A stretch of DNA of 64,000 bases from a virus. Its lineage: Duplodnaviria > Caudoviricetes. Under the pieces are notes generated by a model that was given only the letters and a program-made list of their open reading frames with translations, had not been told where the DNA came from and did no database searches. How positions within the stretch are numbered: position 1 is the first letter of the stretch; each line of letters starts with the position of its first letter. Of the stretch, positions 695-39,568 are shown one piece after another. The stretch lies in IMG/VR virus record IMGVR_UViG_3300037067_011169, positions 1 to 64,000 of that record; one strand, 5' to 3'. A program made the translations under genes and the position numbers.

Positions 695-770
695 GCGCTC
701 GTGGCCTAGTCCGGTTTAAGGCGCTGGATTGTCGATCCAGAAATCGCGGGTTCAAATCCCGCCGGGCGCG
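695..770 (+). tRNA. tRNA-Asp(GTC)
   Basis: acceptor GCGCTCG/CGGGCGC, anticodon arm CTGGA-TTGTCGA-TCCAG, T arm GCGGG-TTCAAAT-CCCGC, G73; no encoded CCA. Confidence 0.92.
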
Positions 771-779
771 CCTTCATTG

Positions 780-852
780 GCGCTCGTAGCTCAGGGGATA
801 GAGCAGCCGACTTCTAATCGGCGGGTCGCAGGTTCGATTCCTGCCGGGCGTG
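780..852 (+). tRNA. tRNA-Arg(TCT)
   Basis: GCGCTCG acceptor, GCCGA-CTTCTAA-TCGGC, GCAGG-TTCGATT-CCTGC. Confidence 0.92.
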
Positions 853-17108: not shown

Positions 17109-17798
17109 TTACTCCCATGTCTTTAGGTTCTTGACGCCTCTTCGTATGAGTCGCACAATGGCCAGGGCGTCTTCCAGGGCGGTATGAGCGACGACGTTAT
17201 CCATGCTTGCCCGTTCATAGCAGGTTTTGCTACCTGGCAGTGCAGTGTCTTCTGGCAACCAGAAGAAAGCGGATGGATCAATCACGCGATGTCGAAAATG
17301 GACCCTCTCTTTGAATTCAGGAACTCGATAGAGAAAGGGCATGTCAAAGGTGCCAAAGTTCTTCCCTGCCGCCTGGACATCAAATGGGTCAACGTCAACG
17401 TCTTTCAGCCAGTAGTGAAAGTCCTCACCAAGGTCCTCTGGATCGGTTGTCTGGCCTCCCTCGATCATTCTCAGCAGAGCACAATTCATCGCCAGGGCGT
17501 GGGGTTCGCCCTGGAGACGGTCATACTTGAGGATCGCGTGAAAGGTTTGTAGTTGGGATATGGGCCGTTTCCAATCATCGAAAACAGCCGCCATCTCTAG
17601 GACCTGGCAATAGTCTGGATCAAGTCCTGTTGTCTCCGTATCGATGCTCACGTAGGGGCAAGCCGGTGGTGTGGCCGGAACACTGGGTTCCGTTACGCCA
17701 TCCGACATGAATCCATGCCATTGGCATTGGGGACAGTCTCCGGTGATCTCCCCGGTTGGAACCAAGGCGGCTTCACAATGAGGACACAGCTTTTTCAT
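17109..17798 (-). CDS. DEDDh 3'-5' exonuclease with N-terminal Zn ribbon
   Basis: IDTETTGLD, NFGTFDMPFL, HTALEDA; CPHC...CPQC; ATGA overlap with Ro60. Confidence 0.88.
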   Translation of the reverse strand: MKKLCPHCEAALVPTGEITGDCPQCQWHGFMSDGVTEPSVPATPPACPYVSIDTETTGLDPDYCQVLEMAAVFDDWKRPISQLQTFHAILKYDRLQGEPHALAMNCALLRMIEGGQTTDPEDLGEDFHYWLKDVDVDPFDVQAAGKNFGTFDMPFLYRVPEFKERVHFRHRVIDPSAFFWLPEDTALPGSKTCYERASMDNVVAHTALEDALAIVRLIRRGVKNLKTWE

Positions 17799-19384
17799 CG
17801 GATGAAGTCCGCCATCACAGCCGGGCAGGACGAATCGAACCCGACCACATCCAGCATCCCTGCATCCTTCGGGTCAGCGATAGTGAACTCGGTGGCCGTC
17901 ATGCCAACAACGATCAGTTTCGCGTCACGGCCGCTTCGGTGACGATACTCACGAAGCGCTTGGCTCGGGTGGATTCGACCGGCCCAGGTTTCGTTGTCGG
18001 TGTAGACGATGAAGGTATCAACGTCCAGTTTGTGCTCGACGGCGTACAGCATCGGGAGCGAACAATCCGTCCCTCCGAATGAGATGCGCGACATGGCATT
18101 GGTGACTTCCGACAATGAGGCGTTTCGGGTGACGTTGAATGGGATGAGTCGGTTGGAGAAAGCGACCATCTGAGTGTTCGGTTCAACCCGATTCGTGACC
18201 ATCGCCATGCAAGCCGATCCTTCCCTGGCGCTGATATTGCTATCACACAAAGGACCAGTCATCGAACCCGACACGTCGAGCGCCAACAAATGATTCTTTC
18301 CGGTGGGCGTCACAAGCTGGAAGGACGCATAGAAGGCGTCTTCCAACGCCGCTTGAATCTGCTGCACCGGCGACCAACACAGGGAGCCGCGAAAACCATG
18401 ACCGCCGCTGTACGTCTTGAGTGCAGTGAGCAAACCAAAGGGGTGAACTCTCGCAGCCTTGAGTCGATCAAGGTTCCCGAGGAAGTCACACACGTACTTT
18501 GATCCGGTGGACAAAGGCTTGAGCAGGCCGACACTGGTCATCTTTCCCAGATTGCGAATCAGCGCCGTCGGCGGCAAGTTCGGGAGGAGGGCTTCCCAAA
18601 TGGCAGGACTGCCGAGTAGTGTGTTGGGGACGTGTTCCAACGTGAGATCGTAGTCTCGAATGAGGTCAATGGCGAATGCCTCTTCAAGACCTGGCGAATT
18701 GAGTTTCTCGAATCCATAAACCGTGCGCAGTTCGGACGAGACGAATCCCTCGGGCATAGTGCCTTGAGTCAGCCAGTGATACAAGGCATTATGACCCATA
18801 TCAACTGCCTTGGGATGACTGAGCCTGAGCGCGTCCCTATGGGTGTAGCCGACTCTGCTTCGATACTTCGTGGTCTGATAGGCCAACTTCTCCAGCGGCT
18901 TGTCGTTGTACCAAGCGGCCACTGCCTCCCGAAGACCTCGTCCCCACCCTCTGAGTTCCTTGCAGTTGGCAATGAACGTGAAGAGGTGGGTCGGGATTCT
19001 GCACACTCTTGGCATGGCCTCCAGGGCTACGCGCCGCACTTCCGGTGATTCATGGCTGGCGAGTAAGGCAAGCGCAAAGATGGCGGGATCATTCTTGGGA
19101 GCCTTGTTGTTTTCGCTGACATCGACGATTGTCGAGATCGTCTTCTCCAGGTCCTCGTTGGCGCAGTCGATGACAACCTTGGCATTCGCTTGAGTGAGAG
19201 GCCGTTCTTTCACGTAGTACGTTCCGCCAGCGCTTCCCAGGACAAGGAATCGGTACAAACGATGCCAGATGTCCAGCACATAGCTGAATCCTCCAGCATT
19301 GTTCATCTGCTGATTGGTTCCTAGGATTGGCTCAGACTGTGGAGTAACGCGAGTCGAAACATGCTTGGCGAGAACGGCACACAT
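17795..19384 (-). CDS. rsr: Ro60/TROVE RNA-binding protein
   Basis: TPQSEPI...NNAGGF, RFLVLGS, KYRSRVGYTHRDALRLSHP, ALIRNLGKM, ARVHPF, C-terminal vWA DVSGSM and YTDNET; GGAGG 8 nt before ATG 19384. Confidence 0.95.
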   Translation of the reverse strand: MCAVLAKHVSTRVTPQSEPILGTNQQMNNAGGFSYVLDIWHRLYRFLVLGSAGGTYYVKERPLTQANAKVVIDCANEDLEKTISTIVDVSENNKAPKNDPAIFALALLASHESPEVRRVALEAMPRVCRIPTHLFTFIANCKELRGWGRGLREAVAAWYNDKPLEKLAYQTTKYRSRVGYTHRDALRLSHPKAVDMGHNALYHWLTQGTMPEGFVSSELRTVYGFEKLNSPGLEEAFAIDLIRDYDLTLEHVPNTLLGSPAIWEALLPNLPPTALIRNLGKMTSVGLLKPLSTGSKYVCDFLGNLDRLKAARVHPFGLLTALKTYSGGHGFRGSLCWSPVQQIQAALEDAFYASFQLVTPTGKNHLLALDVSGSMTGPLCDSNISAREGSACMAMVTNRVEPNTQMVAFSNRLIPFNVTRNASLSEVTNAMSRISFGGTDCSLPMLYAVEHKLDVDTFIVYTDNETWAGRIHPSQALREYRHRSGRDAKLIVVGMTATEFTIADPKDAGMLDVVGFDSSCPAVMADFIR

Positions 19385-19450
19385 CGTATGACCCTCCAAT
19401 AATGGTAGATGATGGTCCTGGTCAGTCCCGGTAAGTCTCGATCAAAGGTA

Positions 19451-19513
19451 TCGGGCAAAGGATGTTGATTGGTGTTCGTAATAATGATGGATAACCAATC
19501 AGCGTCGGCCCGA
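19451..19513 (-). ncRNA. minimal Y RNA (element E)
   Basis: TCGGGC-CGAC-GC-TGATTGG-TTATC-loop-CCAATCA-ACATCCTTT-GCCCGA; directly upstream of Ro60. Confidence 0.8.
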
Positions 19514-19515
19514 AG

Positions 19516-19613
19516 AGGGGATGGGAGGACTCGAACCTTCGATAACCGTCTTCATTCGACCCTCTCGGGTAAGTTAAGAAAACGGGTGCTCAAACCAACT
19601 GAGCTTCATCCCC
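19516..19613 (-). ncRNA. tRNA-scaffolded Y RNA (element A)
   Basis: acceptor GGGGATG/CATCCCC, D and T arms; anticodon arm replaced by CCGTTTTC..CTT-ACCC-GAGA-GGGT-CGAAT-GAAGACGG-TTATC. Confidence 0.8.
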
Positions 19614-19619
19614 AACGTG

Positions 19620-19910
19620 TCATGTGTTTTCTTTGTCGGCTTGATGCCGTAATCCTTCGATCTTGTCTGCGAGTTCATCCATCTCATCGAGCCGGCGCAA
19701 GACAATCACGGCCTCTTTGTCATACACAGTTTGGATCGTCCCGTCGTACATGAGATGGAATTGTTTCAGGAGAACATCCATCAGGCGCTCGGCGTAGTCG
19801 AGATAGAGGCCGATCGAAGACTGATCGTCCAGGCAATTGATCTTCCGATACAGTTCCTGTTCGATGCGACCTAACTCAATCGCGCGATTCATTTCGAGGA
19901 TTCGACTCAT
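19620..19910 (-). CDS. hypothetical acidic helical protein inside the Y RNA cluster
   Basis: GGAG SD, ATG ORF between elements B and A. Confidence 0.7.
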   Translation of the reverse strand: MSRILEMNRAIELGRIEQELYRKINCLDDQSSIGLYLDYAERLMDVLLKQFHLMYDGTIQTVYDKEAVIVLRRLDEMDELADKIEGLRHQADKENT

Positions 19911-19950
19911 GTTGATCTCCCATGATCTCCCATGATCTTCTATGTTACAG

Positions 19951-20074
19951 TCACACCAGCAGGACTCGAACCTGCGACATCAAGTTCCTTAGATAACGTT
20001 GGTCTACGACCCGAATCGGGTAAGAGTCGATCAACGCATATTACTTGCGCTCTAGCCAACTGAGCTATGGTGTG
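19951..20074 (-). ncRNA. tRNA-scaffolded Y RNA (element B)
   Basis: CACACCA/TGGTGTG, D arm, CAAGT/ACTTG, GCAGG-TTCGAGT-CCTGC; 57-nt insert with CGTTG..CTT-ACCCG-ATT-CGGGT-CGTA..CAACG-TTATC. Confidence 0.82.
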
Positions 20075-20077
20075 AGG

Positions 20078-20141
20078 TGCGGGCAAGTGAGTTGCGATGG
20101 GGAAAATCTTAGCTGGATAACCCATAGCAGTTCGGCCCGCA
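20078..20141 (-). ncRNA. minimal Y RNA (element D)
   Basis: TGCGGGC-CGAAC-TGCTATGGG-TTATC-pyrimidine-rich loop-CCCATCGCA-ACTCACTT-GCCCGCA. Confidence 0.8.
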
Positions 20142-39447: not shown

Positions 39448-39568
39448 GACGACCGACAGGACTCGAACCTGCATCACCCGCTTAAATGGCGATAACGCTG
39501 TCCAGTCGGCCCAGAGGGGCAAGAAGCGGACAGCAGTATTAGGTGCTCTGCCGTTAAGCTACGGTCGT
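39448..39568 (-). ncRNA. tRNA-scaffolded Y RNA (element C)
   Basis: ACGACCG/CGGTCGT, D and T arms; insert GCTGTCC-GCTTCTT-GCCC-CTCT-GGGC-CGACT-GGACAGC-GTTATC. Confidence 0.8.

What the first reader, a model, noticed from the sequence alone, without database searches (positions are those of the whole stretch)
19516..20074. tRNAs whose anticodon arm is replaced by a Ro60-binding Y module (un-permuted YrlA)
Elements A and B have full acceptor, D and T arms with normal tRNA ends but no anticodon. The arm instead carries stem-CUU-ACCC-loop-GGGU-CG(A/U)A-stem-UUAUC. In known YrlA the RNA ends lie in the Ro stem and the acceptor stem is looped. Here it is the reverse: the Ro helix is capped (GAGA, AUU) and the acceptor end is free, so it could receive CCA. 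Element A has the GNCGAANG YrlA motif on the strand leading to the T arm, the exact circular permutation. These could be evolutionary intermediates between tRNA and YrlA, nuclease-resistant tRNA decoys, or adaptors bringing tRNA-binding enzymes to Ro60. I know of no description of this topology.
Basis: partly seen in the sequence, partly recalled or inferred. Interest (0 to 1): 0.93.

Follow-up and report, generated by a model that had tools for sequence, protein, structure and literature searches.

The report
tRNA-shaped Y RNAs beside phage Ro60
This phage encodes small RNAs built like complete tRNAs but carrying, in place of a working anticodon arm, the docking hairpin for the RNA-surveillance protein Ro60; they are the un-rotated form of the known bacterial YrlA RNAs, common in phages and several bacterial phyla, and I found no published description.

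Summary
A (19516-19613) and B (19951-20074), both on the minus strand, are full tRNA cloverleaf bodies. In each, the anticodon-arm region carries a capped hairpin with the Ro60-binding bulged helix. A third copy, C (39448-39568), lies 20 kb away.

A and B sit just upstream of a Ro60 gene (17795-19399) and are flanked by two minimal open Y RNAs.

A covariance model built here finds the same design in 12 of 71 other viral Ro60 loci and 46 of 80 bacterial Ro60 loci. All helices covary strongly. In whole-genome searches of 141 Myxococcota genomes, 9 of 10 genomes with a hit encode Ro60, with the hit within about 1.5 kb of it.

The order of parts is the exact circular permutation of YrlA, which cultured actinophages carry in the published, rotated form. 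A genomically encoded CCA follows 10 of 89 elements, against 1.45% expected, which supports a free tRNA-type 3' end.

Rfam 15 has no such family, and the papers I could search describe none. Two earlier AI notes of this scan reported the same design on other DNA.

No transcript ends, Ro60 binding or function have been tested. I class it as a new variant of a known kind.

The parts
19516..19613 (-). Element A: tRNA-shaped Y RNA, simplest type. It has a 7-bp acceptor stem, a D arm and a T arm. The Ro module stem takes the place of the anticodon stem, and UUAUCG serves as the variable loop.
   Evidence: Rfam tRNA 44.2 bits with a 28-nt insert. Model R1 scores 81.7 bits. The minimum-energy fold gives the stated structure, z = -3.1. 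An A-type homologue lies at L070:3559-3655.
19546..19585 (-). Ro60-binding module of A. An 8-bp stem and an internal loop lead to a 4-bp ACCC/GGGU helix capped by GAGA. The helix is followed by a bulged C and CGAA, giving GUCGAAUG, an exact GNCGAANG.
   Evidence: Sequence and fold. The motif is defined in PMC4201824.
19951..20074 (-). Element B: tRNA-shaped Y RNA in which a 5-bp anticodon-type stem (CAAGU/ACUUG) encloses the module plus UUAUC.
   Evidence: Rfam tRNA 50.2 bits with a 57-nt insert. R1 scores 94.1 bits. The outer stem covaries with its homologues: CAGGU/ACCUG in L009 and L010, GCUGU/ACAGC in L044.
19997..20036 (-). Ro60-binding module of B: a stem, CUU, and an ACCCG/CGGGU helix capped by AUU, followed by CGUA.
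   Evidence: It departs from GNCGAAN0-1G at one base.
39448..39568 (-). Element C: a third tRNA-shaped Y RNA, in the replication module between a ParB-like gene and a small ORF upstream of DNA polymerase A. It keeps an anticodon-like hairpin after GUUAUC, with A at position 33.
   Evidence: Rfam tRNA 40.6 bits with a 63-nt insert. R1 scores 105.8 bits. Neighbouring genes were identified.
39497..39534 (-). Ro60-binding module of C: a 7-bp stem, CUU, and a GCCC/GGGC helix capped by CUCU, followed by CGACU.
   Evidence: Fold z = -4.1. The changes are compensatory relative to A and B.
20077..20140 (-). Minimal open Y RNA 'E', abutting the 5' end of B. It carries the same Ro site, but the RNA ends lie in the GGGC/GCCC helix.
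   Evidence: Found by scan. Fold z = -3.6.
19449..19513 (-). Minimal open Y RNA 'D', starting 2-4 nt after the 3' end of A and ending 50 nt before the Ro60 start.
   Evidence: Fold z = -3.9. The same position is occupied in L009, L010 and L070.
17795..19399 (-). Ro60 orthologue, 534 aa.
   Evidence: Pfam vWA_Ro60 6.5e-68 and TROVE 2.7e-35. PHROG 850, 8e-79.
17109..17798 (-). DEDDh exonuclease gene overlapping the Ro60 stop codon. Listed as context and as a possible, unproven partner.
   Evidence: Pfam RNase_T 2e-6. PHROG 192. Weak DnaQ and oligoribonuclease matches in PDB. A homologue next to Ro60 was found only in L012.
19620..19910 (-). 96-aa ORF between B and A. Listed as context; it is absent from related loci.
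   Evidence: No Pfam or PHROG match. No tblastn match in 155 loci.

Best explanation
A, B and C are genes for Y RNAs of the YrlA kind, written in the ordinary tRNA order.

Proposed steps, all inferred unless marked:
1. Each is transcribed within the long minus-strand operons.
2. Each is cut out like a tRNA, by RNase P at the 5' end and by 3' trimming followed by CCA addition.
3. Each folds into an L-shaped tRNA body with a free acceptor end.
4. The capped hairpin at the anticodon end presents the conserved bulged helix: GGGY, a bulged C, then GA(A), paired with (C)UU-RCCC. The phage's Ro60 binds there.
5. The RNA then does what Y RNAs do. It occupies or gates Ro60, and its tRNA-like half ties Ro60 to a tRNA-recognising partner that is not yet known.
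6. Because E and D directly abut B and A, tRNA-type processing would also release those two minimal Y RNAs.

Shown here: the anatomy, covariation of the helices, linkage to Ro60, and enrichment of encoded CCA.
Inferred only: expression, positions of the RNA ends, Ro60 binding, and the partner.
For: Anatomy:
- Full tRNA bodies plus a capped module in A, B and C.
- The Ro site has the architecture of the vertebrate site GGUC[C]GA/UUGACC, and it contains the bacterial GNCGAAN0-1G and YUAY motifs.
- The pair next to the bulged C is U:G in 42 elements and C:G in 25.

Linkage to Ro60:
- The Ro60 gene is 116 nt downstream of A.
- In unbiased whole-genome searches of 141 genomes, 9 of 10 genomes with R1 hits have Ro60, against 17 of 131 without hits (Fisher p = 6e-7). 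In all 9, the hit lies within about 1.5 kb on the same strand.

Family:
- 22 viral elements: 91.7% of cells paired, 23 of 29 pairs with changes on both sides.
- 69 bacterial elements that were not used to build the model: 93.8% paired.
- Both sets beat all 500 shuffles and all slid controls.
- 68 of 69 have an acceptor stem formed by the distal ends, and 66 of 69 have a capped Ro helix.

Homology to YrlA:
- The rotated YrlA of Microbacterium phage FuzzBuster shares an identical stretch of about 40 nt (UUAUC, hairpin, variable loop, T arm) with the un-permuted L070 and L010 elements.
- It also shares the CUAAA(A)C linker after the D arm.

Free tRNA-type 3' end:
- CCA is encoded right after the discriminator in 10 of 89 elements, against 1.45% background (p = 7e-7).
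- That rate is not different from real tRNAs in the same loci, 81 of 440.
- A and B share the CU trailer seen after 6 of the phage's 8 real tRNAs.
- M. smegmatis YrlA is a known RNase P and CCA-adding substrate.
Against: - There are no transcript, end-mapping or binding data for any member.
- Ro60 binding to a site capped 4-6 bp away by a loop has never been shown. Xenopus Ro60 is reported to pry the Y RNA helix apart (PMC12135203).
- B and C each depart from GNCGAAN0-1G by one base.
- C lies 20 kb from Ro60.
- A has A8 instead of U8, and an A-C mismatch in the T stem.
- 34 of 89 elements keep an anticodon-like arm, so some members could still act as tRNAs.
- No sigma-70-type promoter or terminator flanks the locus.
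- The adjacent exonuclease is not a conserved neighbour, so the partner remains unknown.
Confidence: 0.72

Rival explanations
1. They are working tRNAs, at least the C type. An extra arm has been inserted between the D arm and the anticodon stem. It is either tolerated on the ribosome or removed by an unknown splicing step.
For: - 34 of 89 elements have a hairpin with at least 4 of 5 stem pairs and a 7-nt loop with U33 and R37.
- That hairpin is followed by a 4-5 nt variable loop, often AGGUC, in the canonical register before the T arm.
- Encoded CCA occurs at a tRNA-like rate.
Against: - A and its homologue have no anticodon loop at all. In B the loop is replaced.
- 55 of 89 elements lack such an arm, and some have tetraloops instead.
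- Window C and L016 have A33, not the universal U33.
- The insert is itself conserved, covaries, and tracks Ro60.
- From my own knowledge, no bacterial enzyme is known that splices such inserts.
Confidence: 0.1
2. The tRNA bodies are only processing signals. RNase P and 3' trimming at A and B release the flanking minimal Y RNAs E and D, which are the real Ro60 partners. The internal module is a leftover.
For: - E ends 2-4 nt before the 5' end of B, and D starts 2-4 nt after the discriminator of A.
- The same abutting layout occurs in L009, L010 and L070.
Against: - The internal module is conserved and covaries in 91 elements.
- C, and most of the bacterial elements, have no abutting minimal Y RNA.
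Confidence: 0.08
3. They are ordinary rotated YrlA genes in tandem, read in the wrong register.
For: - Tandem arrays can be read both ways. Rfam YrlA scores 37.9 bits across the junction of the two L009 elements.
- R1 scores 48.7 bits across two rotated YrlAs in phage Cashline.
Against: - A, B and C stand alone. B and A are separated by an ORF, and C is 20 kb away.
- Their stems close across 3-4-nt caps, and their acceptor strands pair across the whole element.
- The same holds for 66-68 of 69 bacterial elements.
Confidence: 0.03
4. They are decaying tRNA pseudogenes with chance hairpins.
For: ARAGORN calls none of them. A has an A-C mismatch in its T stem.
Against: Compensatory changes occur in every helix across 91 elements from phages and at least six bacterial phyla.
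Confidence: 0.02

Closest known systems
YrlA (Y RNA-like A; Rfam RF02553; Chen et al. 2014, PMC4201824; Wang et al. 2018, doi 10.1101/312249)
   Same: - Encoded beside Ro60 on the same strand.
- GNCGAAN0-1G Ro site and YUAY motif.
- T arm, D arm and acceptor stem of tRNA type.
- The Ro stem sits on the anticodon side.
- Sequence-level identity of the 3' half with a phage YrlA.
   Different: - Circularly permuted topology.
- In YrlA the RNA ends lie in the Ro stem and the acceptor stem is a closed hairpin, described as lacking a free CCA end.
- Here the Ro helix is capped and the acceptor ends are free.
- The Rfam YrlA score is 15.9 bits, against a cut-off of 69.
M. smegmatis YrlA after RNase P cleavage and CCA addition (PMC4201824)
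   Same: A Ro60-bound tRNA-like RNA whose acceptor stem is opened and receives CCA.
   Different: There the free acceptor end arises by cutting a closed loop, which leaves a two-piece RNA with ends in the Ro stem as well. Here the gene order itself gives one continuous tRNA-type chain.
D. radiodurans Yrn1
   Same: A Y RNA in which the D-like and T-like arms follow the tRNA order relative to the 5' end.
   Different: - In Yrn1 the Ro stem takes the acceptor position and the ends lie in it.
- A hairpin sits at the anticodon position.
- L019:2221-2350 looks like this type.
Minimal Y RNAs (Salmonella YrlB; Thermus phage phiLo Yrl1 and Yrl2, PMC12135203)
   Same: The same CGAA-containing bulged Ro site. 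Elements D and E of this window are of this type.
   Different: They have no tRNA-like domain, and their ends lie in the Ro helix.
Circularly permuted tRNA genes of Cyanidioschyzon merolae (cited in 10.1101/312249)
   Same: A natural pair of tRNA-shaped RNAs that differ only by circular permutation.
   Different: Those genes are processed into normal decoding tRNAs. Nothing of that kind is shown here.
tRNA (RF00005)
   Same: Passes Rfam's tRNA threshold. It has a 7-bp acceptor stem, G18G19, the T-loop UUCGA, a G15:C48 pair, and tRNA-like trailers or encoded CCA.
   Different: There is no anticodon loop in the canonical place in A or B. A 28-63-nt conserved insert is present. ARAGORN gives no call.

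Membership tests
YrlA (RF02553) | Encoded within 4 kb of a Ro60/Rsr gene on the same strand | tested here: met
   A ends 116 nt upstream of the Ro60 start and B about 550 nt upstream. C does not meet this: it lies 20 kb away.
YrlA (RF02553) | GNCGAAN0-1G motif on the strand that leads to the T arm | tested here: met
   A matches exactly (GUCGAAUG). B (GUCGUAG) and C (GCCGACUG) each differ at one base.
YrlA (RF02553) | Conserved YUAY between the Ro stem and the variable region or T arm | tested here: met
   UUAUC follows the module stem in A, B and C, and in nearly all 91 relatives.
YrlA (RF02553) | tRNA-like domain with T arm, D arm and acceptor stem | tested here: met
   Rfam tRNA scores of 44.2, 50.2 and 40.6 bits. 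These helices are paired in 99-100% of cells and covary.
YrlA (RF02553) | Topology: 5' and 3' ends in the Ro stem, acceptor stem closed by a loop | tested here: not met
   The reverse holds. The Ro helix is capped by 3-4 nt and the acceptor stem is formed by the two ends of the element.
YrlA (RF02553) | Score at or above Rfam's gathering cut-off of 69 bits | tested here: not met
   15.9 bits, partial. However, accepted phage YrlAs also reach only 36-47 bits.
Y RNA in general | Bulged helix recognised by Ro60: four pairs, a bulged C, then G:U and A:U | tested here: met
   GGGY[C]GA pairs with UU-RCCC in A, B and C. The pattern of substitutions keeps the pairs.
Y RNA in general | Binds Ro60 | not testable with these tools
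   No tool here tests RNA-protein binding. Only genomic linkage is shown.
tRNA (decoding) | 7-nt anticodon loop on a 5-bp stem, one nucleotide after the D stem | tested here: not met
   Absent in A. In B the loop is replaced by 57 nt. In C a hairpin exists, but it is displaced by the insert and has A33. ARAGORN gives no call.
tRNA (decoding) | 3' CCA end | tested here: inconclusive
   Not encoded in A, B or C, nor in the phage's 8 real tRNAs. It is encoded in 10 of 89 family members. Post-transcriptional addition cannot be tested here.

The most novel reading that the evidence does not exclude
These tRNA-ordered Y RNAs may be the ancestral form from which rotated YrlA arose, and they may act as CCA-tailed, perhaps chargeable, tRNAs carrying Ro60.

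On origin: in tandem arrays the stretch from one module to the next already is a YrlA. In 5 of 9 adjacent pairs, the acceptor strands of neighbouring elements are complementary at 6 or more of 7 positions. That would give the 'dimeric tRNA' origin model a living intermediate.

On function: a free acceptor end would let the RNA take Ro60 into tRNA-handling machinery. Candidates are tRNA repair, tRNA turnover, or anti-defence tRNA arrays.
Probability: 0.22. Interest if true: 0.85.

Novelty: new variant of a known kind. Interest (0 to 1): 0.72.

Why it matters
- **Missing Y RNAs.** It would account for Ro60-encoding bacteria in which no YrlA could be found. Chen et al. noted few YrlA RNAs in delta-proteobacteria, and they discarded hits that overlapped tandem tRNA genes. 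Here 46 of 80 such loci carry the un-permuted form.
- **The Ro60 site.** If binding is confirmed, the Ro60 site works whether it is open or capped, and the tRNA half can have a real acceptor end. That narrows the search for the unknown partner of the tRNA-like domain to factors that read acceptor ends as well as the elbow.
- **Origin of Y RNAs.** Tandem arrays of these elements contain rotated YrlA-like units ready-made. That turns the proposed origin of Y RNAs from tRNA dimers into a concrete, testable path.
- **Annotation.** tRNA finders either skip these genes or score them as odd tRNAs. A dedicated model would annotate hundreds of loci.

Tried and rejected
- ARAGORN finds none of the three elements.
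- Rfam 15, at both gathering and E-value thresholds, gives only tRNA, weak chance hits, and a partial 15.9-bit YrlA match.
- The scan for sigma-70-type promoters and terminators around the locus found nothing useful.
- **Exonuclease as a conserved partner.** tblastn found a homologue beside Ro60 only in L012, out of 155 loci. The enzyme is a generic DEDDh exonuclease, not identifiably RNase T. I dropped this idea as a general mechanism.
- **The 96-aa ORF between B and A.** It has no family match and no relatives.
- **A cultured phage with the un-permuted form.** None was found in Sixama, Cashline, FuzzBuster, Catera, Atu_ph07, Jada, Karimac, Zooman or Mx1. These show rotated YrlA or nothing within 2.5-3 kb of Ro60.
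- **A CUU...AAG pairing.** I considered a tertiary or alternative pairing between the module's 5' internal loop and the stretch before the outer stem. It is plausible in B-type elements but not consistent in C-type ones, so I did not pursue it.
- **First maximum-likelihood tree run.** It did not finish, so FastTree was used. My rule-based calls of the rotated form are rough.
- **Papers not held, so not checked.** Sim and Wolin 2018; Sim et al. 2020; Burroughs and Aravind 2016. The supplements of Chen 2014 are not held either.
- Complex prediction was not used, because it takes no RNA.

Full report
**What is in the sequence**

On the minus strand, 19613-19516 (A) and 20074-19951 (B) read as tRNA bodies. 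Each has a 7-bp acceptor stem, a D arm with G18G19, a T arm with the UUCGA loop, and a discriminator base.

Rfam's tRNA model scores A and B at 44.2 and 50.2 bits, but only by opening 28- and 57-nt insertions in the anticodon loop. ARAGORN calls neither.

- In A, an 8-bp stem follows the D arm directly. It opens into an internal loop and a 4-bp ACCC/GGGU helix capped by GAGA. UUAUCG then serves as the variable loop.
- In B, a 5-bp anticodon-type stem is kept, and its loop is replaced by the same module.
- Rfam also flagged a third element, C, at 39568-39448 (40.6 bits). It has the same module on an unrelated stem sequence, and it was not part of the finding.
- The whole 87.3-kb virus record holds only these three.

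**The module is a Ro60 site by every sequence criterion available**

- The strand GGGY-C-GA(A) can pair with (C)UU-RCCC as four pairs, a bulged C, then G:U and A:U. This is the layout of the vertebrate site GGUC[C]GA/UUGACC.
- The same strand carries the bacterial GNCGAAN0-1G motif, exactly in A and with one departure each in B and C.
- It is followed by the conserved YUAY, as described for YrlA.
- Thermus phage Y-like RNAs that were shown to bind a phage Ro60 were identified by the same CGAA motif.

**Context**

- The ORF 116 nt downstream of A is a Ro60 orthologue: vWA_Ro60 6.5e-68, TROVE 2.7e-35.
- A DEDDh exonuclease gene overlaps its stop codon.
- Two further Y RNAs of the ordinary open kind abut the elements. 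E (20140-20077) ends 2-4 nt before B. D (19513-19449) starts 2-4 nt after A.
- C lies in the replication module, between a ParB-like gene and a small ORF upstream of DNA polymerase A.

**A family, not a curiosity**

Viral loci:
- Among 71 viral contigs that encode a relative of this Ro60, scans found long tRNA-like elements with the capped module on the Ro60 strand.
- I built covariance model R1 from 17 of them. It scores C, B and A at 105.8, 94.1 and 81.7 bits. Real tRNAs stay at or below 54 bits.
- On the 22 best viral hits, 91.7% of cells pair, against 70.1% in shuffles. 23 of 29 pairs change on both sides. The covariation score is 0.648, against 0.227 in shuffles (0 of 500) and 0.10-0.16 with slid partners.

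Bacterial loci:
- The 80 closest Ro60 loci in bacterial genomes are mostly Myxococcota, Gemmatimonadota, Chloroflexota and Armatimonadota assemblies. They include the complete chromosome of Sorangium sp. So ce388.
- They gave 69 further hits of at least 60 bits, in 46 loci. None of these went into the model.
- 93.8% of cells pair, and the covariation score is 0.562 against 0.204.
- 68 of 69 form the acceptor stem from their two ends. 66 of 69 cap the Ro helix with 3-13 nt, most often 4.

Unbiased genome-wide test:
- I searched 141 whole genomes of the class containing Sorangium. R1 hits at E of 1e-12 or better occurred in 10 genomes, and 9 of those have Ro60.
- Ro60 is present in 17 of the 131 genomes without hits (Fisher p = 6e-7).
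- In all nine, the hit lies within about 1.5 kb downstream of Ro60 on the same strand.

**Relation to YrlA**

- Published YrlA runs: 5' Ro strand, YUAY, optional hairpin, T arm, closed acceptor hairpin, D arm, 3' Ro strand. It is described as resembling a circularly permuted tRNA without a free CCA end.
- The present elements are the exact un-rotated order.
- The cultured actinophages I examined carry the rotated form: Cashline, FuzzBuster, Catera and Sixama.
- FuzzBuster's YrlA shares an identical stretch of about 40 nt (UUAUC, hairpin, AGGUC, T arm) with the un-permuted L070 and L010 elements. It also shares the CUAAA(A)C linker after the D arm. The two forms are therefore homologous, not convergent.
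- On a FastTree tree of 150 Ro60 proteins the two forms are clustered. The un-permuted label needs 27 changes, against 45.8 in shuffles (0 of 500).
- The window's Ro60 falls in a fully supported clade with L009, L010, L070, L012 and L011. It also falls in a 96%-supported clade of 23 rows that includes the Polyangiaceae.
- Sister rows can still differ in form, for example L062 and L017. My calls of the rotated form are rule-based and rough.
[quoted passage not shown] The stretch between two modules is then already a YrlA-like unit. This fits the dimeric-tRNA origin model cited by Wang et al..

**The acceptor end**

- CCA is encoded directly after the discriminator in 10 of 89 elements. The background trinucleotide frequency is 1.45% (binomial p = 7e-7).
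- Real tRNAs in the same loci have encoded CCA in 81 of 440 cases, which is not significantly different (p = 0.12).
- In this window, neither the eight real tRNAs nor A, B and C encode CCA. A and B share the CU trailer found after six of the eight real tRNAs.
- This is indirect evidence that the mature 3' end is tRNA-like.

**Sub-types, and a caveat to 'no anticodon'**

- A-type: the module stem replaces the anticodon arm.
- B-type: an outer 5-bp stem covaries. It is CAAGU/ACUUG, CAGGU/ACCUG or GCUGU/ACAGC in different members.
- C-type: the module sits between the D arm and a hairpin that, across the family, looks like an anticodon arm in 34 of 89 elements. That hairpin has a 7-nt loop with U33 and R37, followed by a 4-5-nt variable loop. 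The 'anticodons' are diverse, with GUU the commonest.
- The other 55 lack such an arm or have short loops. Window C has A33.
- Decoding is therefore not a conserved property, but I cannot exclude it for some members.

**Mechanism**

My best reading, at about 0.7, is this. These are Ro60-partner Y RNAs cut out like tRNAs. Ro60 docks on the capped bulged helix, and the tRNA body, now with a free CCA end, offers a handle for a tRNA-recognising factor.

The adjacent exonuclease is a candidate only in this phage and L012. The rival readings are scored in their own section: an extra-armed decoding tRNA, mere processing signals, misread tandem YrlA, and pseudogenes.

**Novelty**

- Rfam 15 has no matching family.
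- Full-text searches returned the YrlA papers, the phiLo Ro60 paper, jumbo-phage and tRNA-array surveys and a 2026 tRNA-mimic preprint. None describes this topology.
- Three relevant reviews or analyses are not held and could not be checked.
- Earlier AI notes of this scan report the same design in other genomes (e1-5529253, e1-5466571). Other notes cover D and E, C, and the exonuclease in this genome. These were leads, not evidence. I tested the claims on my own loci.

**Limits**

Everything here is sequence-based. Expression, RNA ends, Ro60 binding and function are all inferred.

Noticed in passing
L019:2221-2350: A third topology. An open Y stem (GGGU-CG...UUAUC at the 5' end, CUUAUCC at the 3' end) encloses a tRNA-like D arm, an anticodon arm and a T arm in normal order. 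The Ro stem sits on the acceptor side, as described for D. radiodurans Yrn1.
   Followed up: no
L012:3760-3846: A B-type element (66.2 bits with R1) that keeps the outer stem, GUUAUC and AAGGAA but has lost the whole Ro hairpin. It lies in the contig whose Ro60 is closest to the window's.
   Followed up: no
L084 (Polyangiaceae MAG contig), whole 7.6-kb locus; similar in L090, L098, L114: Ro60 sits inside very dense tRNA arrays. ARAGORN finds 32 tRNAs in 7.6 kb of L084, interleaved with 4 tRNA-shaped Y RNAs. tRNA arrays have been proposed in the literature as anti-defence units (PMC12803027).
   Followed up: partly
L080:4522-4943 (Gordonia phage Sixama, MN484601.1): Rfam finds a full-length tmRNA (88.1 bits) between tRNA-Asn and tRNA-Arg, just downstream of Ro60. 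The record's feature table lists no tmRNA there.
   Followed up: no
window 19981-19990 and 20022-20026; L009:399-528; L010:3525-3654; L070:3430-3555; L044:3185-3312: In B-type elements the pyrimidine stretch 5' of the Ro helix (YUCUU) is complementary to a conserved AAGG(G)A just before the outer stem's 3' strand. This could be an alternative or tertiary pairing that competes with the G:U and A:U pairs of the Ro site.
   Followed up: partly
G051:C1:4229461-4229594 and G052:C1:2682101-2682231: Bacterial genomes also hold copies scoring 63 bits far from the Ro60 locus I fetched, like element C in this window.
   Followed up: no
window 19911-19945 (minus strand, just upstream of the 96-aa ORF): A short direct repeat (GGGAGAUCAUG, then GGGAGAUCAAC) supplies the putative ribosome-binding site of an ORF that is absent from all related loci. 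This suggests a recent insertion between B and A.
   Followed up: no
window 695-852: Rfam's YrlA model scores 30.5 bits, full length, across two adjacent ordinary tRNAs. This is the tandem-tRNA false positive that Chen et al. warned about, so sub-threshold YrlA hits in tRNA clusters need checking by hand.
   Followed up: yes
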